Source of the DNA: a virus
Direction: 5' to 3' (one strand)
Virus genome (UHGV): UHGV-0098635
DNA length: 39,409 bases
Shown here: one piece after another, positions 14,508 through 30,256 of the stretch
Numbering within the stretch: the stretch's first letter is position 1
How the letters are laid out: each line of letters opens with the position of its first letter
Notes under the pieces: generated by a model
What the model was told of the DNA's origin: nothing
Seen by the model: only the letters and a program-made list of their open reading frames with translations
The model's database searches: none
Program-made: the position numbers and the translations under genes

Positions 14508-16187
14508 ATGGCGGAAACAACTAAAGAGCGATTGAACAAACAGTTCGCACAACTTGAAAGCGAGCGTCAGTCGTTCGAGCCGCACTGGCGCGAGTTGAGT
14601 GATTACATCAACCCGCGTGGTTCCCGCTTTCTGACTTCTGAGGTCAACCGTAACGATCGACGCAATACACGCATTATTGATTCGACCGGGACTATGGCGG
14701 CGCGCACTCTCGCCAGCGGCATGATGTCAGGCATCACAAGCCCCGCGCGTCCGTGGTTTCGCTTGGCTACGCCAGATCCTGAAATGATGGATTATGGCCC
14801 TGTTAAGTTGTGGCTTGAGGCGGTGCAGAACCGCATGAACGATATGTTCAATAAGTCGAATCTCTATCAGTCGCTGCCGCAGTTATACGGAAGCCTCGGC
14901 ACATACAGCACTGGTGCAATGGCAGTGCTGGAGGATGACGAGGACATCATTCGCACAATGCCATTCCCGATAGGCAGTTACTACCTGGCTAACTCACCTC
15001 GTGGCAGTGTGGACACCTGTTTTCGCAAGTTCTCTATGACTGTTCGTCAGCTTGTTCAGGAGTTCGGGCTAAATAACGTCAGCGAATCCGTAAAAAGCAT
15101 GTGGGAAAGCGGCACCTACGAGAAGTGGATTGAAGTGATGCATTCGGTTTACCCGAACATTGACCGCGATACATCGAAGCTGGATAGCAAGAACAAGCCA
15201 TTCAAATCGGTTTATTACGAGGTTGGTGGCGATAACGACAAGTTGTTGCGTGAGTCCGGATTCGATGAGTTTCCAATTATGGCTCCGCGCTGGGAAGTTA
15301 ACGGCGAAGATGTTTATGGATCATCATGCCCGGGTATGCTGGCGCTTGGACCTGTTAAGGCATTGCAGCTTCTCCAGAAGCGCAAGTCGCAGTTGATTGA
15401 TAAAGCCACCAATCCGCCGATGGTTGCTCCGACTTCCCTCAAGAATCAGCGCGCCTCCCTTCTTCCTGGCGACATCACGTATATCGATCAGATTACTGGT
15501 CAGGATGGCTTCAGGCCTGCTTATCTGGTTAACCCCAGTACAGCAGATTTGGTGGCAGACATTCAGGACACTCGTCAAATCATTAACAGCGCCTACTTTG
15601 TCGATCTGTTCATGATGTTGCAGAACATCAATACCCGCTCGATGCCTGTTGAAGCGGTGATCGAAATGAAAGAAGAAAAACTTCTGATGTTGGGGCCGGT
15701 TCTGGAGCGTCTGAACGACGAATGTCTTAATCCTCTCATTGACCGCGCTTTCTCGATGATGGTGCGTAAAAACACGCTGCCGCCACCGCCTGACGCGATG
15801 GAAGGCATGCCCCTGAAGGTCGAATACATTTCCGTCATGGCTCAGGCGCAGAAGTCTATCGGCCTGTCCAGTCTGGCGTCCACGGTTAACTTCATTGGTC
15901 AACTTGCGCAAGCGAAACCAGAAGCTCTCGACAAACTCAACGTTGATCAGGCGATCGATGCATTCGCTGATATGTCCGGAGTGTCTCCAACCGTCATTGT
16001 TCCGCAGGAACAGGTTGAGCATGCTCGCCAGCAACGGGCACAGCAGCAACAGCAGCAACAAATGATGGCGATGGGGATGGCGGCGGCACAGGGTGCCAAG
16101 ACGCTAAGCGAAGCTAAAACTTCGGATCCGAGTGTTTTGTCAGCTATGGCGAATGCAGTTAGTGGTCAGGGTGGGCAATCACAATGA
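14508..16187 (+). CDS. portal protein, T7 gp8-like head-to-tail connector
   Basis: 559-aa ORF after terminase; the C-terminal Gln/Ala/Met-rich tail (QQQQQQQMMAMGMAAAQGA) resembles the T7 gp8 C-terminus (recalled). Confidence 0.8.
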   Translation: MAETTKERLNKQFAQLESERQSFEPHWRELSDYINPRGSRFLTSEVNRNDRRNTRIIDSTGTMAARTLASGMMSGITSPARPWFRLATPDPEMMDYGPVKLWLEAVQNRMNDMFNKSNLYQSLPQLYGSLGTYSTGAMAVLEDDEDIIRTMPFPIGSYYLANSPRGSVDTCFRKFSMTVRQLVQEFGLNNVSESVKSMWESGTYEKWIEVMHSVYPNIDRDTSKLDSKNKPFKSVYYEVGGDNDKLLRESGFDEFPIMAPRWEVNGEDVYGSSCPGMLALGPVKALQLLQKRKSQLIDKATNPPMVAPTSLKNQRASLLPGDITYIDQITGQDGFRPAYLVNPSTADLVADIQDTRQIINSAYFVDLFMMLQNINTRSMPVEAVIEMKEEKLLMLGPVLERLNDECLNPLIDRAFSMMVRKNTLPPPPDAMEGMPLKVEYISVMAQAQKSIGLSSLASTVNFIGQLAQAKPEALDKLNVDQAIDAFADMSGVSPTVIVPQEQVEHARQQRAQQQQQQQMMAMGMAAAQGAKTLSEAKTSDPSVLSAMANAVSGQGGQSQ

Positions 16188-16480
16188 CAGATTACGAAGA
16201 CGATCAACTGAAAGAAGAAAACGCCCGTAAGCAACGTGACATGGCGCAGCGTGAAATTGATGACATTCGCTTTGTCATGAGCAGTGAACAGGGGCGTCGC
16301 GTTGTCTGGTCGGTGCTGGAGAAAGGCCGTGTGTTTTCCGCTATCTCACCGATGGACGCTATGGCAATGGCATTTAATGAGGGGCAACGCAATCTGGCGC
16401 TGGAACTGTTTCAGCGCGTTATGGCGCATTGCCCTGAACAGTATTTGAAGATGGCCAAAGAGGCCAGTGAACAGGAGTGA
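16184..16480 (+). CDS. hypothetical head-module protein
   Basis: 98-aa ORF coupled by overlap to the portal stop. Confidence 0.55.
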   Translation: MTDYEDDQLKEENARKQRDMAQREIDDIRFVMSSEQGRRVVWSVLEKGRVFSAISPMDAMAMAFNEGQRNLALELFQRVMAHCPEQYLKMAKEASEQE

Positions 16481-16482
16481 TC

Positions 16483-17178
16483 ATGAATTTGTTTGAGCGT
16501 TTGCTGTATAGCCGTCTTTGCAATGAGCAACCAGTCGATGGTGGAGCAGCTCCGGCTGCGTCAGAACCGTCAGCGCCTGCAGGTGATAACCCTGCTCCAG
16601 TTGGTGATCCATCACAACAGGAAGGTGATAAGCCACAACCTGTTGCTGATGTCGATAAACCTGCTGATGACAAAAAGCCTGAAAACGATAAGCAGGATGA
16701 AAAAAAGGACGGCGATAAACCAGAGGGTGCGCCTGAGAAGTACGAGTTTCAGGCTGCCGAAGGCGTAGAGCTGGATACAGAAGCGTTGAAGGAATTCGAG
16801 CCGGTGGCGCGAGAACTTAACCTGACCAACGAGCAAGCGCAAAAGCTGGTTGATGCTTATCCGAAGATTCTGGCAGGTGTTCAGCAGCGCCAGGCAGAAG
16901 CCTGGCAGAAAACAACCGAGCAGTGGGCTGCGGATGTAAAAGCTGACAAAGAAATCGGTGGCGACAAGTTGATTTCTAACCTTAGCGCCGCACAGCGTGC
17001 GCTTGACCAGTTCGGGACACCTGAACTCAAAGAATATCTGAACACCACCGGGCTGGGTAATCACCCTGATCTGGTCAAAACGTTCGTGAAAATCGGAAAG
17101 GCGATGTCTGAAGATGGCATGGTCACCGGTGGTAATGAAGGCCAGCGTAGTGCGGCCGAAGTGCTCTATGGCAAATAA
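16483..17178 (+). CDS. scaffolding protein (gp9-like position)
   Basis: Acidic, low-complexity, helical ORF between portal and capsid; ATG at 16483 with AGGAG RBS. Confidence 0.6.
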   Translation: MNLFERLLYSRLCNEQPVDGGAAPAASEPSAPAGDNPAPVGDPSQQEGDKPQPVADVDKPADDKKPENDKQDEKKDGDKPEGAPEKYEFQAAEGVELDTEALKEFEPVARELNLTNEQAQKLVDAYPKILAGVQQRQAEAWQKTTEQWAADVKADKEIGGDKLISNLSAAQRALDQFGTPELKEYLNTTGLGNHPDLVKTFVKIGKAMSEDGMVTGGNEGQRSAAEVLYGK

Positions 17179-17186
17179 GAGAGGAA

Positions 17187-18179
17187 ATGACAATGACTGT
17201 TAAAGGCTTAACTGCGCTAACGCTGGCTGACTGGGGTAAGCGCGTCGATCCAAACGGGAAAGTCGATAAGATTATCGAGCTTCTCGGTCAAACTAACCCG
17301 ATCCTTCAGGATATGCCTTTTGTCGAAGGGAACCTTCCTACCGGACACCGAACCACCATTCGTTCTGGTTTACCTTCAGCTACCTGGCGTTTGCTGAACT
17401 ATGGCGTACAGCCAAGCAAATCAACCACAGTGCAGGTAACCGATTACGTTGGCATGCTGGAAACCTATGCTGAAGTCGATAAATCACTGGCTGATCTGAA
17501 CGGCAATACCGCTGAATTCCGCCTGTCTGAAGACCGCGCATTTATTGAAGCGATGAATCAGCAGATGGCGCAGACGCTGTTTTATGGTGATTCCAGCGTT
17601 AACCCTCAGCAGTTTATGGGACTGTCCTCCCGCTATTCCAGCCTGTCTGCGGGTAATGCTCAGAACATCATTGATGCTGGTGGCACGGGTACAGATAACA
17701 CCTCAATCTGGTTAGTGGTGTGGGGCGAAAACACCGTGCATGGCATCTTCCCGAAAGGGCAGAAGGCTGGCATCCAGATGGAAGATAAAGGCCAGGTGAC
17801 ACTGGAAGATGCTAATGGCGGCAAGTACGAAGGCTATCGCACCCATTACAAATGGGACAACGGACTTGCTCTGCGTGACTGGCGTTATGTTGTTCGCATT
17901 GCAAACATCGATGTCAGCAATCTTTCAGAACCTTCCTCTGCCGCAAATATTGCGAAGTTGATGGTTAAAGCACTGCATCGCATTCCAAACCGTGGAATGG
18001 GTCGCCCGGTGTTCTACATGAACCGCACTGTAGGCCAGGCTCTTGATCTGCAATCTCTGGAGAAAACATCTCTGGCGATCAGCGTAAAAGAGACTGAAGG
18101 CGAGTGGTGGACTTCATTCCGTGGTGTACCAATCCGTGAAACTGATGCGCTTCTGGAAACAGAAGCCCGCGTGGTGTAA
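17187..18179 (+). CDS. major capsid protein
   Basis: 330-aa ORF after the scaffold with a strong RBS and followed by a terminator-bearing region; start may be 17193. Confidence 0.75.
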   Translation: MTMTVKGLTALTLADWGKRVDPNGKVDKIIELLGQTNPILQDMPFVEGNLPTGHRTTIRSGLPSATWRLLNYGVQPSKSTTVQVTDYVGMLETYAEVDKSLADLNGNTAEFRLSEDRAFIEAMNQQMAQTLFYGDSSVNPQQFMGLSSRYSSLSAGNAQNIIDAGGTGTDNTSIWLVVWGENTVHGIFPKGQKAGIQMEDKGQVTLEDANGGKYEGYRTHYKWDNGLALRDWRYVVRIANIDVSNLSEPSSAANIAKLMVKALHRIPNRGMGRPVFYMNRTVGQALDLQSLEKTSLAISVKETEGEWWTSFRGVPIRETDALLETEARVV

Positions 18180-18230
18180 CGCCTGTTATTAACCTGTGGG
18201 TCGTAACAGACCCACTAATGGAGAAAGAAG

Positions 18231-18668
18231 ATGATCACCGACAAACTGTTGATGTTCTCCGAAGCTCAGGCGGTTACGAATACCGCGGCTTCTACTGACG
18301 TAATCGATCTCGGTCCAATTGATGGAAACCGTCGCGATATCGGCGTGGGTTATCCGCTTGAGTTTTGGGTGCTGGTTAACGAAGCCGCCACGGCAAGTGG
18401 TGAGGCAACTGTAAACATCCAGTTGCAGACGAGTGAGAATAACAGCTCATGGTCCACTATTTATGATAGTGGCGCACTGGCAAAGGCTACCCTGACAGCA
18501 GGTAAACGAGTTGTTTCTGCAAAGGTGCCTGCCGGTGTTCAGCGATATCTGCGTGTTAACTACTCCGTCGCAACTGGCCCACTAACGGCCGGCAAATTCA
18601 CTGCGGGTATCAGTCTGGATGTTGATGCCAATACGCCGTACCCGATCCGCTCAAAAGTAACTGGTTAA
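18231..18668 (+). CDS. virion structural protein, possible capsid decoration protein
   Basis: 145-aa ORF with beta-rich composition immediately after the capsid gene. Confidence 0.5.
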   Translation: MITDKLLMFSEAQAVTNTAASTDVIDLGPIDGNRRDIGVGYPLEFWVLVNEAATASGEATVNIQLQTSENNSSWSTIYDSGALAKATLTAGKRVVSAKVPAGVQRYLRVNYSVATGPLTAGKFTAGISLDVDANTPYPIRSKVTG

Positions 18669-18669
18669 G

Positions 18670-19014
18670 GTGATATCGATGTCAGGTGAGAAACCAAGAT
18701 ACCGCGTTCTGCGCCTCTCTCATATCCATAACACACTGTGGCCGGAGGGGGAAGAAATCGAATACGAAGGTGAGCCTGGTAGCGCACTGGAACCTGTTAA
18801 CGATGCAGCCAGACAGGCAAAAGCAAAGGTAGCAGGAAAGGTGTCTATGGCAGCAACCAGCACCAAAATCATCAACGATGTGTCAGATGATGGTGAACTG
18901 GATAAGCTCCGTGAAGAGTACGAATTGCTCTTTAACGAGAAGCCACACCATAACGCTAAAGCCGAAACGCTCCGCGAGAAGATCGCAGATAAGCGTAAAG
19001 AACTGGGCGTGTAA
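18670..19014 (+). CDS. hypothetical virion-module protein
   Basis: 114-aa ORF with a 1-nt gap to the upstream gene. Confidence 0.5.
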   Translation: MISMSGEKPRYRVLRLSHIHNTLWPEGEEIEYEGEPGSALEPVNDAARQAKAKVAGKVSMAATSTKIINDVSDDGELDKLREEYELLFNEKPHHNAKAETLREKIADKRKELGV

Positions 19015-19032
19015 GCCTCGCGAATCCGACAA

Positions 19033-19052
19033 GGGGCTTCGGCCCCTTTATT
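19033..19052 (+). terminator. rho-independent terminator within the late operon
   Basis: Stem GGGGC / GCCCC with a TTCG loop, followed by TTTATT. Confidence 0.5.
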
Positions 19053-19064
19053 GCAGGAGTGTAT

Positions 19065-19388
19065 ATGGAACTCGTAAACCTCAAAACCGGCACTGACAGC
19101 TACCAGGATGAGAGCGGAGAAACCAGAACTCGCGATGAATACCCGTGGGGGCTGTGCATCACTCTTAATAACGACACATTGAATAAGCTGAAGGCGCAAC
19201 CTCAGGGCGTCGGAACAGAAGTGATGATAACTGCAAAGGCTGTTATTCGAGGCCTGTCTGCCAGAGAAACTGACGATGGTGTTAATCGCAGCGCCGATCT
19301 GCAGATCACTGATATGGCGATCGCTCCTGTTTCCAGGGATGTAGAAAAATCAGCGGCTGAAACTCTGTACGGTAACGGAGGTGAGTGA
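19065..19388 (+). CDS. hypothetical virion-module protein
   Basis: ATG at 19065 with GGAG 5 nt upstream. Confidence 0.5.
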   Translation: MELVNLKTGTDSYQDESGETRTRDEYPWGLCITLNNDTLNKLKAQPQGVGTEVMITAKAVIRGLSARETDDGVNRSADLQITDMAIAPVSRDVEKSAAETLYGNGGE

Positions 19389-19993
19389 TGGCCTCTGTAG
19401 TAGAGATCTGTAATCGTGCGCTGTCCAATATTGGCAACAGCCGCAGTATTAACAGCCTGACGGAAGCCAGCAAGGAAGCGGGTGAATGTTCGCTGCACTT
19501 TGAGGCCTGCCGTGATGCTGTTCTTTCTGATTTTGACTGGAACTTTGCTACCAAACGCGTGGCGCTTGCAGATACGAGCAATCCACCGCCTGACTGGGAA
19601 TATGCGTACCAGTACCCGTCCGATTGTCTGCGCATTACTGAAATTATGCTTCCTGGTGTACGCAATCCAACAGCAGCAATGCGCGTTCAGTACGAAGTTG
19701 GTGCAGACACCAACGGAACAGGAAAGTTGATCTACACAGACCAGCCGCAGGCATGGCTCAAGTATGTCTCTCGCGTTTCAGATGTGAACATGTTTGATGC
19801 CATTTTTATGGAGGCGTTGGCCTGGCGTCTTGCGGCAGCTATTAACATGGCGCTGACTGGGAATGCAGACCTCGGTACGTTTGCCCTCAATATGTACAAT
19901 CGCGTGATTCTTAGTGCTGGCTCGCATAGCCAGAATGAATCACAGGAACCACAGCCACCGGTTGACGAGTTTACCATTGCGAGGTTGTCCTGA
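19388..19993 (+). CDS. tail adaptor, T7 gp11-like (tail tubular protein A)
   Basis: About 200 aa; the N-terminal pattern ICNRALSNIGNSRSINSLTEA resembles the T7 gp11 N-terminus (recalled); precedes a roughly 800-aa gp12-sized gene. Confidence 0.55.
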   Translation: MASVVEICNRALSNIGNSRSINSLTEASKEAGECSLHFEACRDAVLSDFDWNFATKRVALADTSNPPPDWEYAYQYPSDCLRITEIMLPGVRNPTAAMRVQYEVGADTNGTGKLIYTDQPQAWLKYVSRVSDVNMFDAIFMEALAWRLAAAINMALTGNADLGTFALNMYNRVILSAGSHSQNESQEPQPPVDEFTIARLS

Positions 19994-22446
19994 TGGCTAT
20001 CAGTTGGATCCAGCCCAGCTTTGCCGGTGGTGAGATTGGACCGTCGTTGTACGGTCGTATCGACATGGCGAAGTACCAGGTGGCATTGCGCAAGTGCGAT
20101 AACTTTATCGTGCGGCAGTATGGCGGCGTTGAGAATCGACCTGGTACGCGTTTTGTCGGTGCCGCCAAATACCCAAATCGGAAATGCCGCCTGATCCCGT
20201 TCCAGTTCTCGACGGTTCAGACTTATGCTCTGGAGTTCGGACACCAGTACATGCGCGTTATCAAAGATGGTGCGTTGGTGCTGAACAGCAGCAATGTTAT
20301 TTATGAAATTGCCACGCCATATACTGAAGCCGATCTGTTCCGAATTAAATTCACGCAAAGCGCAGACGTGCTTACGCTGGTTCATCCGGCATACCCGCCG
20401 AAAGAGTTGCGCCGCTATGCGCATGACAACTGGCAACTGGTTGATGTGGTAACGAAGAACGGGCCATTTGAAGATATCAATATTGACGAGTCAGTGACGG
20501 TTTATGCCAGCGCCAGCACCGGGACAATTACGTTAACGGCAAGCGCCTCAATTTTTGGCGCGGAGCAGGTAGGCAAATTGTTCTATCTGGAACAGCCTGC
20601 AGTGGATTCTGTGCCGGTATGGGAAACCAGTAAGAGTACGTCGATTGGCGATATTCGCCGTGCAGACAGTAACTACTATCGCGCCGTTACAGCAGGCAAA
20701 ACAGGCACTTTGCGCCCTTCGCATACAGAAGGCACATCATGGGATGGCTGGGGCGGATCCGGTGATGATGATACCGGCATTGAGTGGGAGTATCTGCACA
20801 GTGGTTTTGGCATTGCCCGTATCTCTGCTGCAAATGGAACTACTGCAACTGCCGAGGTGATTTCCTATATCCCTTCGCAGGTAGTTGGCGAGGATAATGC
20901 CAGCTATAAATGGGCTAAATATGCCTGGAACAGTATTAACGGTTATCCTGGCACTGTTGTTTATTATCAACAACGCCTTTACTTCGCCGCATCGACTGCG
21001 TTCCCTCAGACTATCTGGGCCAGCCGTACCGGGGATTATAAGGATTTTGGCAAAAGCAATCCTACGCAGGATGACGACAGAATTATCTACACCTATGCCG
21101 GGCGTCAGGTTAATGAGATCCGCCACCTGATTGATGTCGGTTCGCTGGTGGCACTGACTTCCGGAGGTGAGTACGTCATCACCGGCGACCAGAACAAAGT
21201 GTTAACCCCATCATCATTTGCATTCAGCTCTCAGGGATCAAATGGCTCGAGCAATGTCCCACCAATTGCCGTGGCGAATATTGCTCTGTTCGTCCAGGAG
21301 AAAGGCAGTGTTGTCCGTGATCTGGCCTACTCATTCGATGTTGACGGCTATCAGGGGAACGACCTGACCATCCTTGCCAATCATCTTTTTCAGAAGCACA
21401 GCATTGTTGACTGGTGCTTCTCTATTGTCCCTTACTCCAGCGCCTTCTGCATTCGTGATGACGGTAAATTACTGGTGATGACCTATCTGCGTGATCAACA
21501 GGTTTTTGCATGGGCACCACAGTCCAGTACCGGAAAATATGAAAGCACATGCAGTATCAGCGAAGGCAATGAAGATGCGGTGTATTTCGTCGTTAACCGA
21601 ACCGTTAACGGGCAAACAGTGAGATACATCGAGCGACTGTCCAGCCGTTTATTTACCAGCGATGAAGATGCTTTCTTTGTTGATTCTGGCCTTAGCTATG
21701 ATGGAAGAAATACGTCTGACAGAACGATGACCATCACTGGTGGTTCTGGTGAATGGGATTACCGCGCGGAATATACAATCAGTGTTTCTGGTGGTGCGTA
21801 CTTCACCAGTAGTGATGTCGGTGCGCAACTACAGTTCCCTTATACCGGCGATGAAGTGTCAAAAGAATTACGTTGCGACATTATTTCTGTAACCAGCAAT
21901 ACCGCAGTAGTGGTTCGTGCTAACAGGAACGTCCCGCCATCCCTCAGGAATGTGGCTACCACAAACTGGCAGATGGCGCGCCGGACATTTGGCGGCTTGT
22001 CTCATCTTGAAGGCCAGACCGTAAACATCCTCTCTGATGCGAACGTGGAACCACAAAAAGTGGTTTCCGGAGGTGCCGTCACGCTGGAATCACCGGGGGC
22101 TGTTGTGCACATCGGCCTGCCAATAACTGCTGAATTCGAAACACTGGATATCAACATTAACGGACAGGAAACGCTGCTGGACAAAAAACAGGTGATCCCG
22201 TCCGTTACTCTGGTTGTGAATGCCAGTCGCGGCATCTGGGCGACTACGCCCGGCGGTAAATGGTACGAATATCCACAGCGTGAATTCGAGTTCTACGATG
22301 ATCCTGTTGATGACGCTACCGGAAAAGTAGAAGTGAAACTGGACAGTAACTGGGGCAAAAACGGACGTGTAAAAATCCGTCAGCTTGACCCGTTGCCGCT
22401 GTCTGTTCTTGCCGTTATTCCTCGCCTTACTGTTGGGGGATTCTGA
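19993..22446 (+). CDS. tail nozzle, T7 gp12-like (tail tubular protein B)
   Basis: 817-aa ORF in the gp12 position; call rests on size and synteny. Confidence 0.6.
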   Translation: MAISWIQPSFAGGEIGPSLYGRIDMAKYQVALRKCDNFIVRQYGGVENRPGTRFVGAAKYPNRKCRLIPFQFSTVQTYALEFGHQYMRVIKDGALVLNSSNVIYEIATPYTEADLFRIKFTQSADVLTLVHPAYPPKELRRYAHDNWQLVDVVTKNGPFEDINIDESVTVYASASTGTITLTASASIFGAEQVGKLFYLEQPAVDSVPVWETSKSTSIGDIRRADSNYYRAVTAGKTGTLRPSHTEGTSWDGWGGSGDDDTGIEWEYLHSGFGIARISAANGTTATAEVISYIPSQVVGEDNASYKWAKYAWNSINGYPGTVVYYQQRLYFAASTAFPQTIWASRTGDYKDFGKSNPTQDDDRIIYTYAGRQVNEIRHLIDVGSLVALTSGGEYVITGDQNKVLTPSSFAFSSQGSNGSSNVPPIAVANIALFVQEKGSVVRDLAYSFDVDGYQGNDLTILANHLFQKHSIVDWCFSIVPYSSAFCIRDDGKLLVMTYLRDQQVFAWAPQSSTGKYESTCSISEGNEDAVYFVVNRTVNGQTVRYIERLSSRLFTSDEDAFFVDSGLSYDGRNTSDRTMTITGGSGEWDYRAEYTISVSGGAYFTSSDVGAQLQFPYTGDEVSKELRCDIISVTSNTAVVVRANRNVPPSLRNVATTNWQMARRTFGGLSHLEGQTVNILSDANVEPQKVVSGGAVTLESPGAVVHIGLPITAEFETLDININGQETLLDKKQVIPSVTLVVNASRGIWATTPGGKWYEYPQREFEFYDDPVDDATGKVEVKLDSNWGKNGRVKIRQLDPLPLSVLAVIPRLTVGGF

Positions 22447-22910
22447 TGATCGACGTTCAAATTATTCCCGCTACCGAAGAGCATCTTCAGATGATTTTGC
22501 CGGATGTTCGTCAGGCTGATATTGACGAACTGTATGCGGTATCGCTGATGACTACCGAAGATGCGCTGCGTGTTGGTCTGCGTACTGCGACTATGGCCTG
22601 GTCAGGATTTGCGAACGGAGAACTGGTAACCATGTTTGGCGTATCTCCGGCGTCAATGATCGGTGGCAATGGTACGCCCTGGCTGGTCGGAACCAGCCGT
22701 ATCGAAAAATATCAGAAGACATTTCTTCGCCACTGCCGCCCTGTATTGCAGCAGATGCTGGCAGTTTATCCGCGCCTGGAAAACTATGTCGACGAGCGAA
22801 ACCATGTTGCCAAAGCATGGCTGCACTGGCTTGGATTCAGGCTTGAAGAAGCCGCGCCTTATGGTGCTCTTGGTCTTAATTTCCACAGATTTCACATGGA
22901 GAGAAAATAA
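22446..22910 (+). CDS. small internal virion protein (gp13-like position)
   Basis: 154-aa ORF coupled to gp12-like and gp14-like genes. Confidence 0.5.
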   Translation: MIDVQIIPATEEHLQMILPDVRQADIDELYAVSLMTTEDALRVGLRTATMAWSGFANGELVTMFGVSPASMIGGNGTPWLVGTSRIEKYQKTFLRHCRPVLQQMLAVYPRLENYVDERNHVAKAWLHWLGFRLEEAAPYGALGLNFHRFHMERK

Positions 22911-23455
22911 TGTGCGATCCGGTTATTGCTGGTGGCGCAATGCTCGCCATGAGTGGCATTCAGGCATACACCCAGTACCAACAGGGAAAGTATGCCTCGA
23001 AGGTTGCAGAAGCGAACGCAGATATAGCCACAGCTCAGGCAAATGATGCAATAAACAGGGGTAACGCTGAAGCTGAGCAACGGCGCAGAGAGACCCGACA
23101 GCGGCTTGGTACACAGGCGGCGACAATGGGGGCTACCGGCGCTGATTTATCTACCGGTAACGCGCTGGATATATTTGGTGACACTGCTCAGTTTGGCGCT
23201 CTTGATTCGCTGACGACGGTGAATAACGCGCAACGCGAGGCTTACGGTTATCAGGTTCAGGCTGCCAACTATAAAGCAGAAGCCAGTTCAGCCCGTAAAC
23301 AGGGGAATGTGGGAGCAGCAACAACATTGCTCACTGCGCCTCTGAAGGCATACGGTGCGTACCAGATGTTTGGTGGGACGTGGAGTCCGTTTACTCAAAG
23401 CACCCCTGCGCCAATCGGGGCAGCAGCAGGAACCAGATTACCCGGAGGATTATAA
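22910..23455 (+). CDS. internal virion protein B, T7 gp14-like
   Basis: The N-terminus MCDPVIAGGAMLAMSGIQAYTQYQQGKY parallels the T7 gp14 N-terminus MCWAAAIPIAISGAQAISGQNAQAKM (recalled); similar size. Confidence 0.65.
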   Translation: MCDPVIAGGAMLAMSGIQAYTQYQQGKYASKVAEANADIATAQANDAINRGNAEAEQRRRETRQRLGTQAATMGATGADLSTGNALDIFGDTAQFGALDSLTTVNNAQREAYGYQVQAANYKAEASSARKQGNVGAATTLLTAPLKAYGAYQMFGGTWSPFTQSTPAPIGAAAGTRLPGGL

Positions 23456-25968
23456 TGCCAGTCGTACCAACAGTATCCGGACGCCAGGTTGAGAGCCGTG
23501 GAGTTCAGTCAGCAGGCTTGCAGACGTTTTCTCAGCCAGGTATTGGTGATGCTTTTGTTCGGGCAGGGACAGAGGCAATTGATGTTTTGGGGCAGGCAAA
23601 ACAGCGTGCCAATATCGCTCTGGCTCAGGAGGCATCTCTTAACCTCAGTCAGATAAGCAGTGATCTGCTGAATAACCCTGAAACAGGTTTGCTTAACCTG
23701 AAAGGGAAAAATGCTATTGGAAAAGGCCATGAGTATACGCAGCAGTTTGATGCTCAGGTCGAACAACTGGCTATGTCGCTGCCGGATGAACAGGCTCGTA
23801 ATGCTTTCATGCAGCAGGCGCAGCAGCAGCGCATTCAGTTCACTACGCAGGCCGGGCGACACGAGATAGGGCAAATTAATGCCTACGAAGAAGGCCAGTT
23901 TCAGGCGACACTGCTGAACAATGGTAAAAATGCCGCAGCATTGTATGGCGACAACGCCGCATACGTATTGGCTAACAAACAAACTTTCCAGCAAATTGAG
24001 GAGTACGGTGTTGCACATGGCTGGAGCAACGAGCAAATCCAGGCCAAGAAAATCGAGTTTAAAGAGAAGGTTGCTGATGCTGCATTGTCCCAGTGGTCGG
24101 CAAACAATGCGACCGCATTCATCCAAAGTAATGGCGAGTTAAGTGATACTGCTGCTGGAGCTCGCCGTGCTGTAGCAGATAGTGACTCTTCCGAGCGTGC
24201 CCGTGGCATACGCAACAATAACCCAGGAAATCTCGAATACAGCAAAACTAATCCGTGGGTAGGCCAGACCGGTGATGATGGTCGATTTGCTAAATTCGAA
24301 ACACCTGAACACGGGATTCGTGCATTAGGGCGGAACCTGATGTCGTATCAGAGGCAGGGTATTGATACCGTCAGCGAGATAATTAATCGCTGGGCACCGC
24401 CTGCTGATAAAAATGACACTATGTCGTATATCAAAGCAGTGTGCGAACAACTTGGCGTTTCTGCTGATGAGCCTCTCGATGCATCTAATCCTGATACCCT
24501 GAAGGCGCTTTGTGCAGCCATTATCCATCATGAGAACGGTAGCCAGCCATACAGTGATCAGCAGTTAACTGCTGGTGTCAGTGCAGCACTTGGTTTATCA
24601 ACAATTCCAACCAACACCAAACGCTATACCGGTAATGCAGCATTCGATGCGGCATCTCCTGAGGCTCAGGCAAGTTTTATGTGGCAGGCGGATCAACTGC
24701 GTCGGCAGCAGCAGGCTGAATATAAAACGATGATTGACAGCCAGGTTCGCGATGCGACGGCTGCGTATATGCGTGGCGTTGAATTTCCTAACCCACCTGG
24801 TGAGGCTGATTTTATTGCAGCTTATGGAGTCAGAGAAGGAAACCTGCGATATACCGAGTTTAAGAATACGCAGATCGCCGGACAGTATATAGGCTCTTTC
24901 CGCAACATGCCGACAAGCAGCATTACAGCATATGTTGAGCAATTACGCCCGGATACTGGTGAGACAGGGGAGGGTTATGCGGCTCGCGCAGCTCTTTATG
25001 ACAACGTTGTTTCGGCTGCAAATCAGGTGATAAAGCAGCGGCAGTCTGATCCTGTGCAGTTCTCTCTTGCCTCCGGACAGGCAAAGCCTATCGACATGAG
25101 CAATAAGGATAACTTTGGACAGAGCGTTGCCTTGCGTGCCGCTCAGGTCAGTGACCTTGCTAAGTCATATGGCACTCCACTGACGTTCTTTTCCAAAGAC
25201 GAGGCCAATCAGATCGGTGTTTTTTTTCGTGATGCTCCAGTTTCCCAACAGGCAGCATATCTCGATACCATCAGGCAGAGCACTGGTGGTGGGCAGGTGT
25301 ATATGTCAGCACTACAGCAGATCAGTGCCAACGCTCCATCTGCTGCCGTTGCCGGGATACTGATGGACAAGCCTGGTGGTATTTTGGCAGAAAAAAACTG
25401 GTTTAATCCGGATGTTTCCGTGTCTCCTGAAACCGCTGCGCAGACAATTCTTACTGGCGCGGCGGCTCGTAAAGGTACTGATGATGCGAAAGGTATTCCG
25501 ATGCCTAAAGATGCTGATCTTCGCCTTGAGTTTTCTGACATGGTGAAGGATGCATTTGCTGGTGATGCTCAGGGGGCATCAATGGCATACGAGATCGCAA
25601 AGGACTATTACGCTGGTGTGATGGCGAAAAAAGGCGTGATATCAGGCGAAATTGACAATGATATCTGGAAACAGGCTGTTAACGTAGCTACAGGTGGCGT
25701 GCATGACTATAACGGAATGGGGAATGTTCTTTTGCCGTGGGGAATGTCTGCAGAGCAATTCGATAAGCAGGTTAATCAGGCTTGGAATGAACAAGTTGTC
25801 GGCACAGGGATAAAAACACCGCCTGGTCAGTATGGTTTGCAAAGTTACGGCGATAGTCAGTACCTGGTAAAACTTGGGGCTGGATATCTGCTGAAGGATG
25901 ATGGTTCTCCTGTTGTTCTTGATCTGACACAGAAGCGTCAGAGATTCTCCGGAGATATTCCGCAATGA
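23456..25968 (+). CDS. internal virion / ejection protein (gp15-like position)
   Basis: About 837 aa from the ATG at 23456 (GGAGG RBS); the track ORF from 23380 overlaps the upstream gene in another frame. Contains an RNNNPGNLEY...NRWAPP segment. Confidence 0.6.
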
Positions 25969-27767
25969 GTTACTTTGGCCTTAATCCAGTAAACCAGAAT
26001 CAGCAGCTTGACGAAGCAGCATCAAATCCAGCTGGCTTTAACAGCGATGTTGGTTTTTTCGACAATGCTGTAGGAGCGGCATTGTCTGGTTTGTACTCCG
26101 GGCTGGTGGCAAAGCCAGATCAGTTGCTCTGGGCAGGGATGGATAAAATCGTATCCCCGATTGCTCAGTTTATTAACGAAAACACCTCGCTCAATGATAC
26201 TTCAGTTTCATACATTGCCGAGCAGAGAAAACTAGCAGAGCAGCAGGTTAAGCGGCTGACGCCTGATGCCGCGACAACCGGAACCGCCGGGCAGGTTCTT
26301 TATGGGTTGTTCGATATGGGCGGGCAGGCTGTTGTCGGTACAACGCTCGGTGGTCCTGTCGGAGGTGCAGCGGCGGTAACTTCGCTACAGGGTTTTTCTG
26401 AGTTTGAACGGCTGACAGCACAGGGTGTTGATTTCAGGACGGCGCAGGAAGCGGGATTAGTGCAGGGCATTACTGCTGGTGCCGGAACACTGATCCCTAT
26501 GAGCCTCGGGTTACGTGCTGGTGGTGCGCTGGCGGAAGGTGTGGCGGCTCAGCTTGCGCGGACGGGTGAGAGTTCAGTGCGACGCGCCGCAGCAACAGCA
26601 GTACGTGCAACGCCAGATATTGCCTATGCCGCAGGTACAAATATTGCGTTCGGTATGGCACAGCGTGGGCTTACTGCAAAAACACTTCGTGATGGTGGCT
26701 ATAGCGAAATGGCTAACCAGTATGATGTGTTGGATCGACAGGCAATTGCTATTGATGCTGTTCTTGGGGTGGCGTTTGGTGGTGTCGGCAGATTTATTAA
26801 CTCTCGCGGCGAGTCTACAAGCGCACCAAATTTTTCACCAGTTGATATTGATGCTGCACTGGCGGCGAATGCCGCTCATCATGCTGAAATTGATATTGCT
26901 CCCGGCGTTCCGATCAACGTGCTTTCGCGTAATTCGCACATTCAGGCTCTGCGAAAAGCCATGTCTGATGTTAGCCAGGGGAGACCTGTAGACGTTGCCA
27001 GCATTGTTGAGTCTGCATCTTTCAGTGAAATTCCTGGGCGCAAGAGTCTGCTGTCTCAGGCAGTTAATGAGGCTCTGTCATCTGTAGATGATGGAGTAAC
27101 GGCGCGCGCTATAGAAAATCGGTTGCTTGAAGAACAGGCCGCGCAGCTTTTGTCGCGTGGCGATAGAAAGGTTTACCAGTCTGAAATCGCTAATAGCCAA
27201 CGAATTATTGAAAATCTCACTGAACAGCGCGCACAAATTCTTGCAGAAGAGCCAACCGGTAGCGGTAAGGCTTTATCTCGTGCTCGATCAGATAAACAGG
27301 CCAGACTTCGCGATATTGACCAACGAATCCGGCAGGCACAAGAACGCCTGGAATTTTCTCGTAACGCGTTGGCGCCGCACGAGCCTGGAGGTCAGTTTTT
27401 TGAAGCTCGAGCAGAACTGGCACGACGACAGCAGGCAGAAAGTGAACTTAATGCTCAGGCTGTTTCATTCTATAAAACAGCAGAGGTCAGGACGCCAGAA
27501 GAAGTAGCTCCTTTTGAGCCCGGTAAGATATTGCAACAGACAGAACAAAAAATGATGGCAGATCCGGCAGGAGATATTGATCTGCGTATAGCTGAAGACT
27601 CGCTGCTTGAATCACCTGACATGATAATCACCGTGCTGGATGATGATGGTAATCCACAATCGCGCAGTGCGCGTGAAGTACTGGATGAAGCGAACAGGGA
27701 AAGTGAGCAGGCAATACAGGATTCCAGCCTGTTTGATGTTGCTGTGGCGTGTTTCTTGAGAGGTTAA
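25965..27767 (+). CDS. internal virion / ejection protein
   Basis: 600-aa ORF coupled by ATGA overlap; Ala/Gly-rich N-terminus and a charged helical C-terminus. Confidence 0.6.
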   Translation: MSYFGLNPVNQNQQLDEAASNPAGFNSDVGFFDNAVGAALSGLYSGLVAKPDQLLWAGMDKIVSPIAQFINENTSLNDTSVSYIAEQRKLAEQQVKRLTPDAATTGTAGQVLYGLFDMGGQAVVGTTLGGPVGGAAAVTSLQGFSEFERLTAQGVDFRTAQEAGLVQGITAGAGTLIPMSLGLRAGGALAEGVAAQLARTGESSVRRAAATAVRATPDIAYAAGTNIAFGMAQRGLTAKTLRDGGYSEMANQYDVLDRQAIAIDAVLGVAFGGVGRFINSRGESTSAPNFSPVDIDAALAANAAHHAEIDIAPGVPINVLSRNSHIQALRKAMSDVSQGRPVDVASIVESASFSEIPGRKSLLSQAVNEALSSVDDGVTARAIENRLLEEQAAQLLSRGDRKVYQSEIANSQRIIENLTEQRAQILAEEPTGSGKALSRARSDKQARLRDIDQRIRQAQERLEFSRNALAPHEPGGQFFEARAELARRQQAESELNAQAVSFYKTAEVRTPEEVAPFEPGKILQQTEQKMMADPAGDIDLRIAEDSLLESPDMIITVLDDDGNPQSRSAREVLDEANRESEQAIQDSSLFDVAVACFLRG

Positions 27768-27772
27768 ATTAA

Positions 27773-30247
27773 ATGAGACAGGAATGTATACAAGCGGTCC
27801 AGCAGGCGGCGCAGCGCACGTTAACGGCGCGAGAAATACAGAACATTGAAGACCGCATTTATCGAAATATGCGCTCCATTGCTCGTGATGACCCGATGTC
27901 GTGGCGACAACTTTCCGAATCAGAGCGGCTGTATCGTGCAGCACAATTGGCATCTGAAGAATTACAGCGAGAAGCGGCATTAAAGAAACGTCGTGTGGCC
28001 CTCACTATAGCCGCACGTCAGAGATTGGATAAATTTATCAATAGCTATCAAGGGGCTGATGGGAAACTTGGCGCTCTTAACCGTACTATTGCTTTTAATG
28101 CAGACGGTAAATCGAATTTCCTCTCTGTTGAATCCAGAACAAAAGCCACCCGTGATTATGCATTGAGTCAATTACAGGAGGCATTCGAAGCAGTTGATCC
28201 TCGCTTTTTTGGTCTGTTTGAAGATGAAGCGGGCGTACGTGACCTGGTATATGAAATGCGGGGGCAAAATACTGGCAATGCTAAAGCAAGAAAAGGTGCT
28301 AAGGCGTGGAGAGAAGTGACAGAGCTACTGCGCCGCCGGTTTAATGATGCTGGTGGGGACATTGGCTATCTCGAAAACTGGGGGATCCCTCAACATCATT
28401 CTATGGAAAAGGTTGGGGCGGTATCAAAAGATAAATGGGTTAGCGATGTTATAGGTAAGCTGGATCGCAAATATTATACCCGAGCCGATGGACAACTGAT
28501 GAACGATGCCGAGTTGTCTGCATTTCTTGGAGAGGCTTATAACACGATCGCTACTGGTGGGCTGAATAAGCTTACTGATACCGGAATGCGAATTTCCGGC
28601 GCACGTGCTAACCGTGGTAATGCATCACGACAGATACATTTCAAAGATGCAGATTCCTATCTGCAATATCAGCAACTTTATGGCGATCGCTCTCTATGGG
28701 AAATCATGGTCGGTCACCTGGAAGGGATCAGTAAAGATATTGCTTTGGTGGAAACATATGGTCCAAACCCCGATCATGTTTTCCGTTCCCTTCTTGATCA
28801 GGTGAAGGCAGAAACGGCAACAGCTAACCCGAGTAAAACCGGTAGCGTCGAGCGGCTGGCGAACAAAACAGAGAACCTGTACAACTTTATTTCCGGAAAG
28901 ACACAGCCTGTTGCGAATCCTCACATCGCGCGCTGGTCTGACAATATCAGAAACTGGCTGGTTGCCAGCAGGCTCGGATCCGCGTTGCTGTCATCGTTCT
29001 CTGATCTTGGAACCATGTATCTGTCTGCGAAGGTTACCAACCTTCCAATGAACCAGTTATTCCGCAACCAGCTTGAAGCTATGGACCCAACGAACCGTAC
29101 AGAACTTGCGCGGGCGCGCCGCGCTGGTCTGGCGATGGAATCTCTACTTGGCAGCGTTAACCGCTGGGCGATGGATAATATGGGGCCGTCAGTGTCTCGT
29201 TGGGCGGCAACGGCGGTAATGCGTGCCAGTGGGCTTACAGCATGGTCAGATGCGCACAAGCGCGCTTATGGCGTAACCATGATGGGAAGCCTGGGAGAAG
29301 TAGTGTCACGGACACCAGACCTTCGTAGCCTCGATGACTCTGATTTTCGTATCCTGAAAAGCAAAGGGATTACTGACACAGACTGGAGCGTATGGAAGCT
29401 GGCGCAACAGGAGGACTGGGGGAACGGTAATAATACGATGCTGACACCGGAAAGCATTATGCGTATCCCTGATTCAGCAGTTAAACATCTTGGTGAGCCT
29501 GAACGTGTGAAATTTGAGGCAATGCGTAAACTGCTCGGTGCCGTAACTGAAGAAGTTGATATGGCTGTTATTACACCGGGCGCACGTGAACAGATGTTCG
29601 TAGGGTCTGGTCTTCAGCGTGGAACATGGAAAGGTGAATTAACGAGAAGTGTTTTCCTGTTTAAATCGTTCCCTATCTCGGTAGTTATGCGTCACTGGCA
29701 TAGAGCTATGGGGATGCCGTCTGCTGGTGGGCGTGCGGCATATATAGCAACGTTTTTAGCAAGCACAACCATGCTTGGTGCTCTTTCCATGCAGATTACT
29801 GATCTTATTAATGGGAGAAATCCAAAAGAAATGACCGGTGACAACATGGTTAAATTCTGGATAAATGCATTTTTAAAAGGTGGTGGGGCAGGGTTGTATG
29901 GTGATTTTCTTTTCTCTGACCACACCAGGTACGGGAGCGGCGCACTAGCGTCGATGCTTGGCCCGGTAGCTGGTCTGGTTGATGACGTAGTGAAGATTGC
30001 TCAGGGCATACCGTTAAATGCTGTGGAAGGGAAGAATGAGCAGACTGGTGGTGATCTGGTTAAGCTTGGGAAAGGTTTGATGCCTGGTGCGAATCTCTGG
30101 TACTTGAAGGCGGCTCTCGATCACATGATCTTTAATCAGATGCAGGAGTATTTTTCACCAGGCTATTTGCGTAAAATGGAGCAACGTTCGAAGAAAGAGT
30201 TTAACCAGACATACTGGTGGCGACCTCAGGATGTCACTCCGCAATAA
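27773..30247 (+). CDS. internal virion protein, T7 gp16 C-terminal-region-like
   Basis: The segment LFKSFPISVVMRHWHRAMGM...AFLKGGGAGLYGDFLF parallels the T7 gp16 segment QFKSFTIKSLNSKFLRTFYDG...MGLAGGFYAM (recalled). Confidence 0.65.
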   Translation: MRQECIQAVQQAAQRTLTAREIQNIEDRIYRNMRSIARDDPMSWRQLSESERLYRAAQLASEELQREAALKKRRVALTIAARQRLDKFINSYQGADGKLGALNRTIAFNADGKSNFLSVESRTKATRDYALSQLQEAFEAVDPRFFGLFEDEAGVRDLVYEMRGQNTGNAKARKGAKAWREVTELLRRRFNDAGGDIGYLENWGIPQHHSMEKVGAVSKDKWVSDVIGKLDRKYYTRADGQLMNDAELSAFLGEAYNTIATGGLNKLTDTGMRISGARANRGNASRQIHFKDADSYLQYQQLYGDRSLWEIMVGHLEGISKDIALVETYGPNPDHVFRSLLDQVKAETATANPSKTGSVERLANKTENLYNFISGKTQPVANPHIARWSDNIRNWLVASRLGSALLSSFSDLGTMYLSAKVTNLPMNQLFRNQLEAMDPTNRTELARARRAGLAMESLLGSVNRWAMDNMGPSVSRWAATAVMRASGLTAWSDAHKRAYGVTMMGSLGEVVSRTPDLRSLDDSDFRILKSKGITDTDWSVWKLAQQEDWGNGNNTMLTPESIMRIPDSAVKHLGEPERVKFEAMRKLLGAVTEEVDMAVITPGAREQMFVGSGLQRGTWKGELTRSVFLFKSFPISVVMRHWHRAMGMPSAGGRAAYIATFLASTTMLGALSMQITDLINGRNPKEMTGDNMVKFWINAFLKGGGAGLYGDFLFSDHTRYGSGALASMLGPVAGLVDDVVKIAQGIPLNAVEGKNEQTGGDLVKLGKGLMPGANLWYLKAALDHMIFNQMQEYFSPGYLRKMEQRSKKEFNQTYWWRPQDVTPQ

Positions 30248-30256
30248 GGAACAACA

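What the first reader, a model, noticed from the sequence alone, without database searches (positions are those of the whole stretch)
14508..30247. T7-like podovirus virion module fused to a lambdoid temperate backbone, with the gp16-like protein apparently split
Portal, gp11/gp12-like, gp14-like and gp16-like proteins show recalled T7-family sequence patterns, yet the element has a CI/Cro switch, O/P replication and RecT recombination and no phage RNA polymerase. The gp16-sized function appears as two ORFs (25965-27767 and 27773-30247) separated by 5 nt; that could be a genuine split, a frameshift site or a sequencing error.
Basis: partly seen in the sequence, partly recalled or inferred. Interest (0 to 1): 0.5.

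Follow-up and report, generated by a model that had tools for sequence, protein, structure and literature searches.

The report
Known phiV10/epsilon15-type phage; two genuine ejection genes
The window is an ordinary member of a well-described group of temperate short-tailed E. coli/Salmonella phages (phiV10/epsilon15, genus Uetakevirus), and the two adjacent ORFs suspected of being a broken gene are two real, separately translated internal-virion genes conserved across many bacterial genera.

Summary
The ORFs exist exactly as described. Region 14508-30247 is 97.6% identical to phage phiV10 and collinear with Salmonella phage epsilon15 (genus Uetakevirus). A T7-type portal, tail and internal proteins on a lambdoid temperate backbone without an RNA polymerase is the known layout of this genus.

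The head is not T7-like: the capsid belongs to the epsilon15 GP7 family, with a protease and BPP-1-type decoration proteins.

The 600-aa ORF (pA, 25965-27767) and the 824-aa ORF (pB, 27773-30247) are neither a sequencing error nor a frameshift site:
- The junction is identical in 81 of 81 close relatives.
- pB's frame is closed by a TAA directly before its ATG, and a GAGAGG ribosome-binding site lies 9 nt upstream.
- In 22 further loci from at least 11 genera the two are always separate, with different junctions. Three Pseudomonas prophages carry a 430-470 bp insert between them.

pB alone is the remote homologue of the T7 gp16 core, as already published for epsilon15 gp17. pA is a separate family. 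The cell-wall-cutting domain sits in the upstream 837-aa protein.

"Split gp16" is therefore only partly right. Rare metagenomic proteins do fuse a pA-type N-domain, enzymatic cargo and pB. Interest is low.

The parts
14508..16187 (+). Portal protein (T7 gp8-type head-to-tail connector), 559 aa
   Evidence: Pfam PF12236, E 5.1e-187. PDB 8ck0 'Portal protein', E 9e-179. Equivalent to phiV10 p07 and epsilon15 gp4.
16184..19388 (+). Head genes, not T7-like: Bbp19-like protein, protease (16477-17178), major capsid protein of the epsilon15 GP7 family (17187-18179), Bbp16-like cement protein (18231-18668), a small ORF, and a gp10-like decoration protein (19059-19388)
   Evidence: Pfam PF25181, PF20911 (E 5.5e-149), PF21190 and PF21628. 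phrog_458 protease.
19385..19993 (+). Tail adaptor (position of T7 gp11), 202 aa
   Evidence: phrog_394 'tail protein' and phrog_9239 'tail tubular protein'. PDB 8ck1_E 'Connector Protein', E 2.9e-26. No direct similarity to T7 gp11.
19993..22446 (+). Tail nozzle (position of T7 gp12), 817 aa
   Evidence: PDB 8ck1_A 'Tail Nozzle', E 2.1e-220. phrog_376. Only a weak profile signal to the central region of T7 gp12 (hhalign E 0.0034, 9.5%).
22446..22910 (+). T7 gp13-type internal virion protein, 154 aa
   Evidence: phrog_308, E 9e-63. T7 gp13 falls in the same family.
22910..23455 (+). T7 gp14-type internal virion (ejection) protein, 181 aa
   Evidence: Pfam PF24072 T7_gp14, E 2.5e-7, 31.2 bits against a cutoff of 27. 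phrog_418.
23455..25968 (+). 837-aa internal protein carrying a muralytic (endolysin-like) domain at about residues 250-395 (= phiV10 p18 = epsilon15 gp15). The true start is ATG 23455, not the upstream GTG 23380 listed mechanically.
   Evidence: PDB 9vvp_L Gp29 residues 3-143, E 5e-38, and 7q47 'Endolysin', E 2.8e-17. phrog_992/1044/873/7182. Start inferred from phiV10 and Tyrion and the translation.
25965..27767 (+). pA, 600 aa (= phiV10 p19 = epsilon15 gp16). It has a conserved Gly/Ala-rich N-domain (about 1-340), a coiled-coil middle with an SGKALSRAR motif, and a conserved C-terminal motif of about 50 aa. Probable ejection/internal protein; a family of its own.
   Evidence: phrog_1145. 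Alignments. The only strongly hydrophobic stretch is 260-278. A module at 355-490 is similar to Klebsiella phage Kp_Z1 gp16-family protein residues 265-390. No match to T7 gp16 or gp15.
27758..27775 (+). pA/pB junction: Shine-Dalgarno-like GAGAGG (27758-27763), pA stop TAA (27765-27767), a TAA in pB's own frame (27770-27772), and pB start ATG (27773-27775)
   Evidence: Read directly from the sequence. Identical in 81 of 81 close relatives.
27773..30247 (+). pB, 824 aa (= phiV10 p20 = epsilon15 gp17). All-helical remote homologue of the core of T7 gp16 (internal virion protein D).
   Evidence: phrog_684 'virion structural protein'. hhalign of the pB family against the T7 gp16 family: 84.6%, E 6.8e-6, pB 120-674 to gp16 550-1149; 94.2%, E 1.2e-7 after adding Kp_Z1; reversed controls 0.1%. 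AF2 model is all-helical, pLDDT 74, pTM 0.76. Published assignment for epsilon15 gp17 in PMC4819975.

Best explanation
The window is the genome of a phiV10-like temperate podovirus (genus Uetakevirus, epsilon15 group), probably as a prophage. Region 14508-30247 is its late operon for head, tail and internal-virion (ejection) proteins.

pA (25965-27767) and pB (27773-30247) are two independent, translationally coupled genes. pA stops at TAA. A GAGAGG ribosome-binding site inside the end of pA serves the ATG of pB 9 nt downstream.

Inferred mechanism, by analogy with T7 and from published epsilon15 imaging:
1. The tailspike binds O-antigen.
2. The internal proteins leave the capsid through the portal-adaptor-nozzle channel and build a conduit across the cell envelope.
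3. The gp14-like protein acts at the outer membrane.
4. The 837-aa protein cuts peptidoglycan with its muralytic domain.
5. pB, the gp16-core homologue, and probably pA extend the channel across the periplasm and inner membrane.

Relative to T7, the jobs of gp16 are spread over three polypeptides. This is an old and stable arrangement, not a recent break.

Shown here: identity of the phage, gene boundaries, conservation of the two-gene state, remote homology of pB to gp16, the location of the muralytic domain, and the existence of fused relatives.

Inferred, not shown: virion location and the ejection role of pA and pB in this phage.
For: Identity of the phage:
- 97.6% identity over all 15.7 kb to phiV10 and several other Uetakevirus records.
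- Gene-for-gene collinear with phiV10 and epsilon15. The rest of the window is a mosaic of the same group.
- The closest relative, vB_EcoP_ZX5, is described as a short-tailed temperate Uetakevirus (PMC9782041).

Two real genes:
- The junction is identical in 81 of 81 loci.
- The region is present in 323 of 5426 complete E. coli genomes, where the listed best matches are annotated as separate CDS.
- The exact 600-aa protein is seen on hundreds of contigs.
- In 22 loci from Escherichia, Salmonella, Enterobacter, Citrobacter, Klebsiella, Kluyvera, Pectobacterium, Pseudomonas, Oleiphilus, Luteibacter and Aromatoleum, the 837-aa protein, pA and pB (or their homologues) are three separate ORFs. The pA/pB junction is a spacer of 5, 4, 3 or 1 nt, an overlap of 1 or 4 nt, or a 430-470 bp insert. 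In three of these loci the two ORFs share a frame but an in-frame TAA separates them.
- In the window, pB's own frame has a TAA at 27770-27772, so neither frameshifting nor readthrough can join the two.

Homology:
- pB to the T7 gp16 core, in agreement with PMC4819975.
- Muralytic domain in the 837-aa protein.
- gp13 and gp14 homologues.

Functional linkage of pA and pB:
- Five representative proteins of 1707-2913 aa carry a pA N-domain (E 1e-34 to 6e-61) and a full pB domain. One has the pA C-motif 10 residues before pB.
- One fusion is encoded identically on two independent contigs in a podophage context.
Against: - The pB-gp16 link is remote (about 16% identity) and depends on the alignment. 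A deeper but less diverse pB alignment gave only 0.1% probability over the same region.
- HMMER against PDB sequences found no gp16.
- No structural or proteomic data were examined for pA. Its virion location rests on synteny and on a second-hand citation for epsilon15 ('gp17/16', PMC12391199).
- Hydrophobic segments in pA and pB are weak apart from pA 260-278, so membrane insertion is conjecture.
- No integrase was found in the window, so whether this copy is a complete, inducible phage is not established.
Confidence: 0.88

Rival explanations
1. pA and pB are the two halves of an ancestral single gp16-type gene: an evolutionary split, in which pA corresponds to the N-terminal part and pB to the C-terminal part.
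For: - Combined size is 1424 aa against 1318 aa for T7 gp16.
- pB aligns only with gp16 542-1154, leaving the N-terminal 40% of gp16 without a partner.
- pA 355-490 resembles residues 265-390 of the 1287-aa gp16-family protein of Klebsiella phage Kp_Z1. That protein hits both phrog_342 (the T7 gp16 family, E 3e-172) and phrog_1145 (the pA family, E 4.5e-13).
- Fused pA-cargo-pB proteins exist.
Against: - The pA profile has no similarity to the T7 gp16 family anywhere (0.1-0.9%).
- The pA-like module of Kp_Z1 falls mainly in columns where T7 gp16 has gaps, so it looks like a shuffled insert rather than a conserved part of gp16.
- Fusions are 5 of the 150 best representatives; nearly all others are stand-alone proteins of 810-860 aa.
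- The published view places epsilon15 gp16 with the gp15-type candidates.
Confidence: 0.2
2. The two ORFs result from a sequencing or assembly error, or from a recent inactivating mutation, in a single gene.
Against: - The junction is identical in 81 independent loci and the region is found in 323 complete E. coli genomes.
- The two-gene state holds in at least 11 genera with varied junctions.
- pB has its own ribosome-binding site and ATG, and a family-wide conserved N-terminus 'MRxxCIxAV'.
Confidence: 0.01
3. A programmed ribosomal frameshift or stop-codon readthrough at the junction makes a pA-pB fusion protein alongside pA.
For: Frameshifted fusions are common in phage structural genes (general knowledge). 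pB is in the -1 frame relative to pA.
Against: - pB's frame contains a TAA (27770-27772) immediately before its ATG. Reading on past pA's TAA in pA's own frame meets TGA two codons later.
- There is no heptanucleotide slippery site before the stop.
- The relative frame of the two genes differs among relatives (0, +1 and +2), and some have a 430-470 bp insert.
Confidence: 0.01

Closest known systems
Escherichia phage phiV10 (NC_007804; genus Uetakevirus) and close relatives vB_EcoP_ZX5, PAS61, phiv142-3 and TL-2011b
   Same: - 97.5-97.7% nucleotide identity over the whole 15.7-kb region, with the same gene order and lengths (p19 600 aa, p20 824 aa, 5-nt spacer).
- The early region is 96-98% identical in mosaic blocks.
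   Different: - Tailspike and accessory genes differ: region 30.2-39.4 kb is only 35-59% covered in relatives.
- A 296-aa antisense ORF lies between the terminase and the portal, where phiV10 has a 123-aa gene.
- No integrase is found in the window.
Salmonella phage epsilon15 (NC_004775): gp4 and gp7-gp17
   Same: - Gene-for-gene collinear: portal, protease, capsid, decoration proteins, gp11, gp12, gp13, gp14, gp15 (muralytic), gp16 (= pA) and gp17 (= pB).
- Its capsid core and transient periplasmic tube have been imaged (cited).
   Different: - pA is only about 30-37% and pB about 27-30% identical to their epsilon15 counterparts, which are longer (634 and 918 aa).
- The junction there is a 1-nt overlap rather than a 5-nt spacer.
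T7 internal virion / ejection proteins gp13, gp14, gp15 and gp16 (Autographiviridae)
   Same: - Same order downstream of the tail tube genes.
- gp13 and gp14 are homologous.
- pB aligns with gp16 542-1154.
- A muralytic domain is present in the set.
   Different: - No phage RNA polymerase.
- The muralytic domain is internal to the 837-aa protein instead of N-terminal in gp16, as already noted for K1E/K1-5 and phiKMV (PMC8954989; PMC4819975).
- There is an extra protein family (pA), and no detectable gp15 homologue.
- Capsid, maturation and terminase genes are of another lineage.
Polyvalent injected proteins of phages (Iyer et al. 2017, PMC5512222), and H66 gp60 / N4 gp50 as gp16-type domains joined to enzymes (PMC4819975)
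   Same: - Relatives P0141, P0142, P0149, P0193 and P0239 combine a pA N-domain, variable middle regions and a C-terminal pB domain in one protein of 1707-2913 aa. P0149 carries ddrB-ParB and RadC-JAB domains.
- Many pB homologues carry a 200-300 aa insert at about residue 580.
   Different: The window's pA and pB carry no recognisable enzymatic cargo (no Pfam hits) and are separate polypeptides.

Membership tests
Genus Uetakevirus (epsilon15/phiV10-like temperate podoviruses) | High nucleotide identity and collinear gene order with accepted members | tested here: met
   97.6% identity over 100% of 14508-30247 to phiV10. 57-77% of the early region is covered at 96-98% identity. Gene order is identical to phiV10 and epsilon15.
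Genus Uetakevirus (epsilon15/phiV10-like temperate podoviruses) | Temperate functions: repressor, cro, excisionase and integrase | tested here: inconclusive
   Matches to the epsilon15 repressor, gp39 (cro-like) and excisionase are present. There is no match to the epsilon15 integrase anywhere in the window. The integrase may lie outside the window or be of another type.
Genus Uetakevirus (epsilon15/phiV10-like temperate podoviruses) | Short-tailed virion morphology | not testable with these tools
   Taken from the literature only. The abstract of PMC9782041 describes vB_EcoP_ZX5, the best match here, as short-tailed.
T7-like phages (Autographiviridae) | Phage-encoded single-subunit RNA polymerase | tested here: not met
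   All ORFs of 490 aa or more are assigned to terminase, portal, nozzle, the 837-aa internal protein, pA, pB or tailspike. None hit an RNA polymerase family.
T7-like phages (Autographiviridae) | T7-type portal (gp8) | tested here: met
   PF12236, E 5.1e-187.
T7-like phages (Autographiviridae) | Tail tube proteins homologous to gp11 and gp12 | tested here: inconclusive
   - BLASTP against T7 gp11 and gp12 is not significant.
- hhalign of the nozzle family against gp12 gives E 0.0034, 9.5%, over the central region. The adaptor family against gp11 gives nothing.
- Solved homologues are named connector and nozzle.
- Strong profile-profile matches between the epsilon15 and T7 gp12 groups are published (PMC4819975).
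T7-like phages (Autographiviridae) | T7-type capsid and scaffold (gp10/gp9) | tested here: not met
   The capsid protein is PF20911 (epsilon15 GP7 family). It comes with a protease (phrog_458) and BPP-1-type Bbp16/Bbp19 proteins.
T7 gp16 / internal virion protein D family | Homology to the helical core of gp16 | tested here: met
   - pB: hhalign 84.6% (E 6.8e-6), rising to 94.2% (E 1.2e-7); 510-529 collinear columns; reversed controls 0.1%.
- Caveat: a less diverse pB alignment gave 0.1%.
- pA: not met.
T7 gp16 / internal virion protein D family | N-terminal lytic transglycosylase domain | tested here: not met
   Neither pA nor pB has one. The muralytic domain lies in the 837-aa protein at 23455-25968. 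The domain is also absent from some accepted family members, such as Kp_Z1.
T7 gp16 / internal virion protein D family | Fold similar to solved gp16-type ejection proteins | tested here: inconclusive
T7 gp16 / internal virion protein D family | Packaged in the capsid core and ejected into the host | not testable with these tools
   Only indirect: epsilon15 gp17 is annotated as a virion structural protein and is discussed as such in PMC4819975 and PMC12391199.
Polyvalent injected proteins | Several unrelated enzymatic domains in one large polypeptide encoded among virion genes | tested here: not met
   The window's pA and pB have no Pfam domains. Only distant fused relatives qualify.

The most novel reading that the evidence does not exclude
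The pA N-domain and pB work as one two-part delivery chassis for protein ejection. In related phages the same two modules bracket variable enzymatic cargo in a single giant polypeptide, and pB has an insertion hotspot near residue 580. In the phiV10/epsilon15 lineage the chassis is expressed as two coupled genes without cargo. If so, pA would be the missing N-terminal partner of the gp16-type core. The family could then be read as a general, engineerable system for injecting proteins with phage DNA.
Probability: 0.3. Interest if true: 0.4.

Novelty: already known. Interest (0 to 1): 0.15.

Why it matters
It matters little for discovery. The element is a routine phiV10/epsilon15-type prophage carried by about 6% of complete E. 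coli genomes, and its mixed architecture and the gp16-type assignment of the pB family are already published.

The practical value is for annotation:
- The 600-aa and 824-aa 'hypothetical proteins' can be labelled as separate internal-virion (ejection) proteins.
- The 824-aa one can be labelled as the gp16/IVP-D homologue.
- The muralytic function belongs to the upstream 837-aa protein.

The side observation has some interest for work on podovirus ejection proteins. Fused pA-cargo-pB proteins exist, and pA shares a module with a gp16-family protein of an autographivirus. That fits the known mosaic evolution of these proteins.

Tried and rejected
- **Homologue searches for pA.** Searches with the single sequence and with a 12-sequence profile returned only E. 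coli copies at least 98% identical. A viral-contig scan gave the same result. These were useful only to show junction constancy.
- **Genome scan.** It failed twice because the alignments were too diverse. It worked with three sequences.
- **PDB sequence searches.** pA and pB as single sequences, and the pB profile, gave only noise: PET hydrolase at E 0.12 and LidA at E 0.02.
- **Structure prediction of pA.** I did not run it as a single sequence.
- **Local hhalign run.** One run accidentally used global mode and was discarded.
- **Direct comparisons with T7.** BLASTP or hhalign of the adaptor, nozzle and the 837-aa protein against T7 gp11, gp12 and gp15 gave nothing significant.
- **Solved entries.** A literature search for PDB codes 8CK0/8CK1/9VVP did not identify the phages behind them. 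9EFK belongs to a Legionella phage paper.
- **Readings considered and rejected.** Sequencing error, pseudogene and programmed frameshift; see the rival explanations.

Full report
**1. What is in the window**

ORF listing confirms every ORF named in the finding. They form a tightly packed plus-strand operon with overlapping or nearly abutting start and stop codons:
- portal 14508-16187
- head genes 16184-19388
- adaptor 19385-19993
- nozzle 19993-22446
- a 154-aa protein 22446-22910
- a 181-aa protein 22910-23455
- an 837-aa protein 23455-25968
- pA 25965-27767 (600 aa)
- pB 27773-30247 (824 aa)

The mechanical ORF for the 837-aa protein starts at GTG 23380. Relatives and the translation place the real start at ATG 23455.

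**2. Identity**

Megablast of 14508-30247 covers 100% of the region at 97.0-97.7% identity in Escherichia phages vB_EcoP_ZX5, phiV10, O157 typing phages 9 and 10, phiv142-3, PAS61 and HEMP4. It covers 96% at 81% identity in Enterobacter phage Tyrion, with partial matches at about 75% in Salmonella phage epsilon15 and relatives. All of these are Uetakevirus.

The annotated records of phiV10 and epsilon15 are collinear with the window gene for gene. pA corresponds to phiV10 p19 (600 aa) and epsilon15 gp16 (634 aa). pB corresponds to phiV10 p20 (824 aa) and epsilon15 gp17 (918 aa, 'virion structural protein'). The rest of the window is a mosaic of the same phage group.

The closest relative, ZX5, is published as a short-tailed temperate Uetakevirus (PMC9782041). 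The region 25900-30300 occurs in 323 of 5426 complete E. coli genomes, almost always on the chromosome. This is a common prophage type.

**3. Is the virion module T7-like?**

Partly.
- **T7-type:** the portal (PF12236, E 5e-187); the 154-aa protein, which shares phrog_308 with T7 gp13; the 181-aa protein (Pfam T7_gp14, above the curated cutoff); and pB (section 5).
- **Uncertain at sequence level:** the adaptor and nozzle match solved chains named 'Connector Protein' and 'Tail Nozzle'. Against T7 gp11/gp12 I obtained nothing significant by BLASTP. Profile comparison gave only a weak signal for the nozzle's central region (E 0.0034). Hardies et al. report strong profile-profile matches between the epsilon15 and T7 gp12 groups (PMC4819975).
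- **Not T7-like:** the head genes. The capsid is of the epsilon15 GP7 family, with a maturation protease, Bordetella BPP-1-type Bbp16/Bbp19 proteins and a gp10-type decoration protein. The small terminase is Terminase_2.

**4. The backbone**

Pfam and tblastn found the following: an MT-A70 methylase, RecT, a PDDEXK exonuclease, an HTH_3 repressor (42% identical to the epsilon15 repressor), a cro/gp39-like ORF, an excisionase-like ORF, a replication initiator with HTH_36 and DnaT domains, lambda-type P (PF06992), Ead/Ea22, DUF551, two holins, an endolysin and a spanin.

'O' is a different kind of initiator. No integrase is detectable in the window.

**5. The two ORFs**

*The junction.* It reads GAGAGG-T-TAA-ATTAA-ATG. 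pB's own frame carries a TAA at 27770-27772, directly before its ATG. Reading on past pA's TAA in pA's frame meets TGA two codons later. No frameshift or readthrough can therefore join them.

*Conservation.* The junction is identical in 80 viral contigs and in phiV10. In 22 further loci the 837-aa protein, pA and pB (or their homologues) are always three ORFs. These loci include Tyrion, SPN1S, BUCT711, epsilon15, Pseudomonas phage YA3, and prophages of Citrobacter, Klebsiella, Kluyvera, Pectobacterium, Pseudomonas, Oleiphilus, Luteibacter and Aromatoleum. Their junctions are spacers of 5, 4, 3 or 1 nt, overlaps of 1 or 4 nt, or a 430-470 bp insert in three Pseudomonas prophages. The relative frame varies among them.

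Sequencing error, pseudogene and programmed frameshift are excluded.

**6. Which protein is 'gp16-like'?**

*The muralytic domain.* In T7 it sits at the N-terminus of gp16. Here it lies inside the 837-aa protein. That protein matches the first 143 residues of the 1295-aa chain 9vvp_L (E 5e-38) and an endolysin, 7q47 (E 2.8e-17).

*pB.* A 42-sequence pB profile was built from the 5130-member family found by the exhaustive search. It aligns with an 8-sequence T7 gp16 family profile over 510 collinear columns. The aligned ranges are pB 120-674 and gp16 550-1149, at 84.6% probability and E 6.8e-6. Adding the Klebsiella phage Kp_Z1 protein raises this to 94.2% and E 1.2e-7. Reversed-sequence controls, T7 gp15, and the nozzle and pA families give 0.0-0.2%; the 837-aa family gives 3.5% (E 0.012), and only over gp16's N-terminal muralytic domain.

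Two cautions apply. A deeper but less diverse pB alignment gave no significant score. Fold searches with a reasonable AF2 model (pLDDT 74, pTM 0.76) were uninformative. The assignment agrees with Hardies et al. 2016. They identified epsilon15 gp17 as the homologue of T7 internal virion protein D and listed gp15 and gp16 as gp15-type candidates.

*pA.* It has no detectable similarity to T7 gp16 or gp15. Residues 355-490 do resemble residues 265-390 of the Kp_Z1 gp16-family protein: 30% identity by BLASTP, and hhalign 72%, E 3e-5. That protein hits both the T7 gp16 PHROG (E 3e-172) and the pA PHROG (E 4.5e-13). This segment of Kp_Z1 falls mostly in alignment columns where T7 gp16 has gaps. It therefore looks like a shuffled module, in line with the mosaicism described for ejection proteins (PMC8954989).

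**7. Fused relatives**

Five of the 150 best pB-family representatives are 1707-2913 aa long. Each has a pA-type N-domain (E 1e-34 to 6e-61), a variable middle and a full pB domain.
- In P0193 the conserved pA C-terminal motif ends 10 residues before pB begins.
- P0149 carries ddrB-ParB and RadC-JAB domains. It is encoded identically on two independent contigs, one of 39.4 kb and next to a T7-type terminase.

These resemble the polyvalent injected proteins of Iyer et al. (PMC5512222), and H66 gp60 and N4 gp50 as discussed by Hardies et al.. They argue that pA and pB act together. Because they are rare, they do not show that the two-gene state is derived.

**8. Verdict**

The 'fusion' is the known Uetakevirus architecture. 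The two ORFs are genuine genes.

'Split gp16' is partly right in a loose functional sense. The tasks of gp16 are spread over the 837-aa protein, probably pA, and pB. It is wrong as a statement of homology for pA, and wrong as a hint of a frameshift or an error.

Novelty: already known. Interest: low.

Noticed in passing
pB residue about 575-585 (window about 29495-29530); homologues P0124, P0125, P0129, P0143, P0153, P0170, P0182, P0196, P0204, P0216-P0218, P0226, P0257: Many pB-family proteins of 1020-1170 aa carry an insert of 200-300 aa at the same position, between profile positions about 573 and 575. This suggests a hotspot for added domains in this ejection protein.
   Followed up: partly
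L102:9528-10000, L105:9573-10000, L108:9528-9973: Three Pseudomonas prophages have a 430-470 bp segment between the pA and pB homologues. In L102 and L108 it contains a small ORF that starts like a lipoprotein signal peptide (for example MKQVLLLAALALLGGC in L102).
   Followed up: no
window 1-5040 and 37430-39409: Excisionase-like (1105-1350, minus), repressor (3719-4288, minus) and cro/gp39-like (4443-4670, plus) ORFs match epsilon15. No part of the window matches the epsilon15 integrase. The integrase may lie just outside the window or be missing.
   Followed up: partly
window 12742-13632 (minus strand): A 296-aa antisense ORF lies between the large terminase and the portal, in a dip of G+C (0.445). 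phiV10 has a 123-aa gene at this position. The ORF belongs to phrog_4780 (unknown function) and has only weak coiled-coil-type matches to DndD/PbeC/LmuB defence proteins, E about 1e-4.
   Followed up: partly
window 37649-38722 (minus strand): Two minus-strand genes follow the lysis cassette: a DUF5384 protein, and a 172-aa glycine-zipper/TraT-like protein that PHROGs labels 'DNA methyltransferase' (phrog_1277). They are possibly lysogenic-conversion or exclusion genes. The PHROG label looks doubtful.
   Followed up: no
window 30952-32563 (minus strand): Between pB and the tailspike lie an AntA/AntB-type antirepressor (31907-32563) and two small ORFs. One of them has a faint YafO-toxin-like match (E 9.5e-4, below the cutoff).
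   Followed up: no
window 33334-35349: The tailspike has a pectate-lyase-like domain and a C-terminal Peptidase_S74 intramolecular chaperone domain. It differs from those of phiV10 and epsilon15, consistent with serogroup-specific tailspike exchange in this genus.
   Followed up: no
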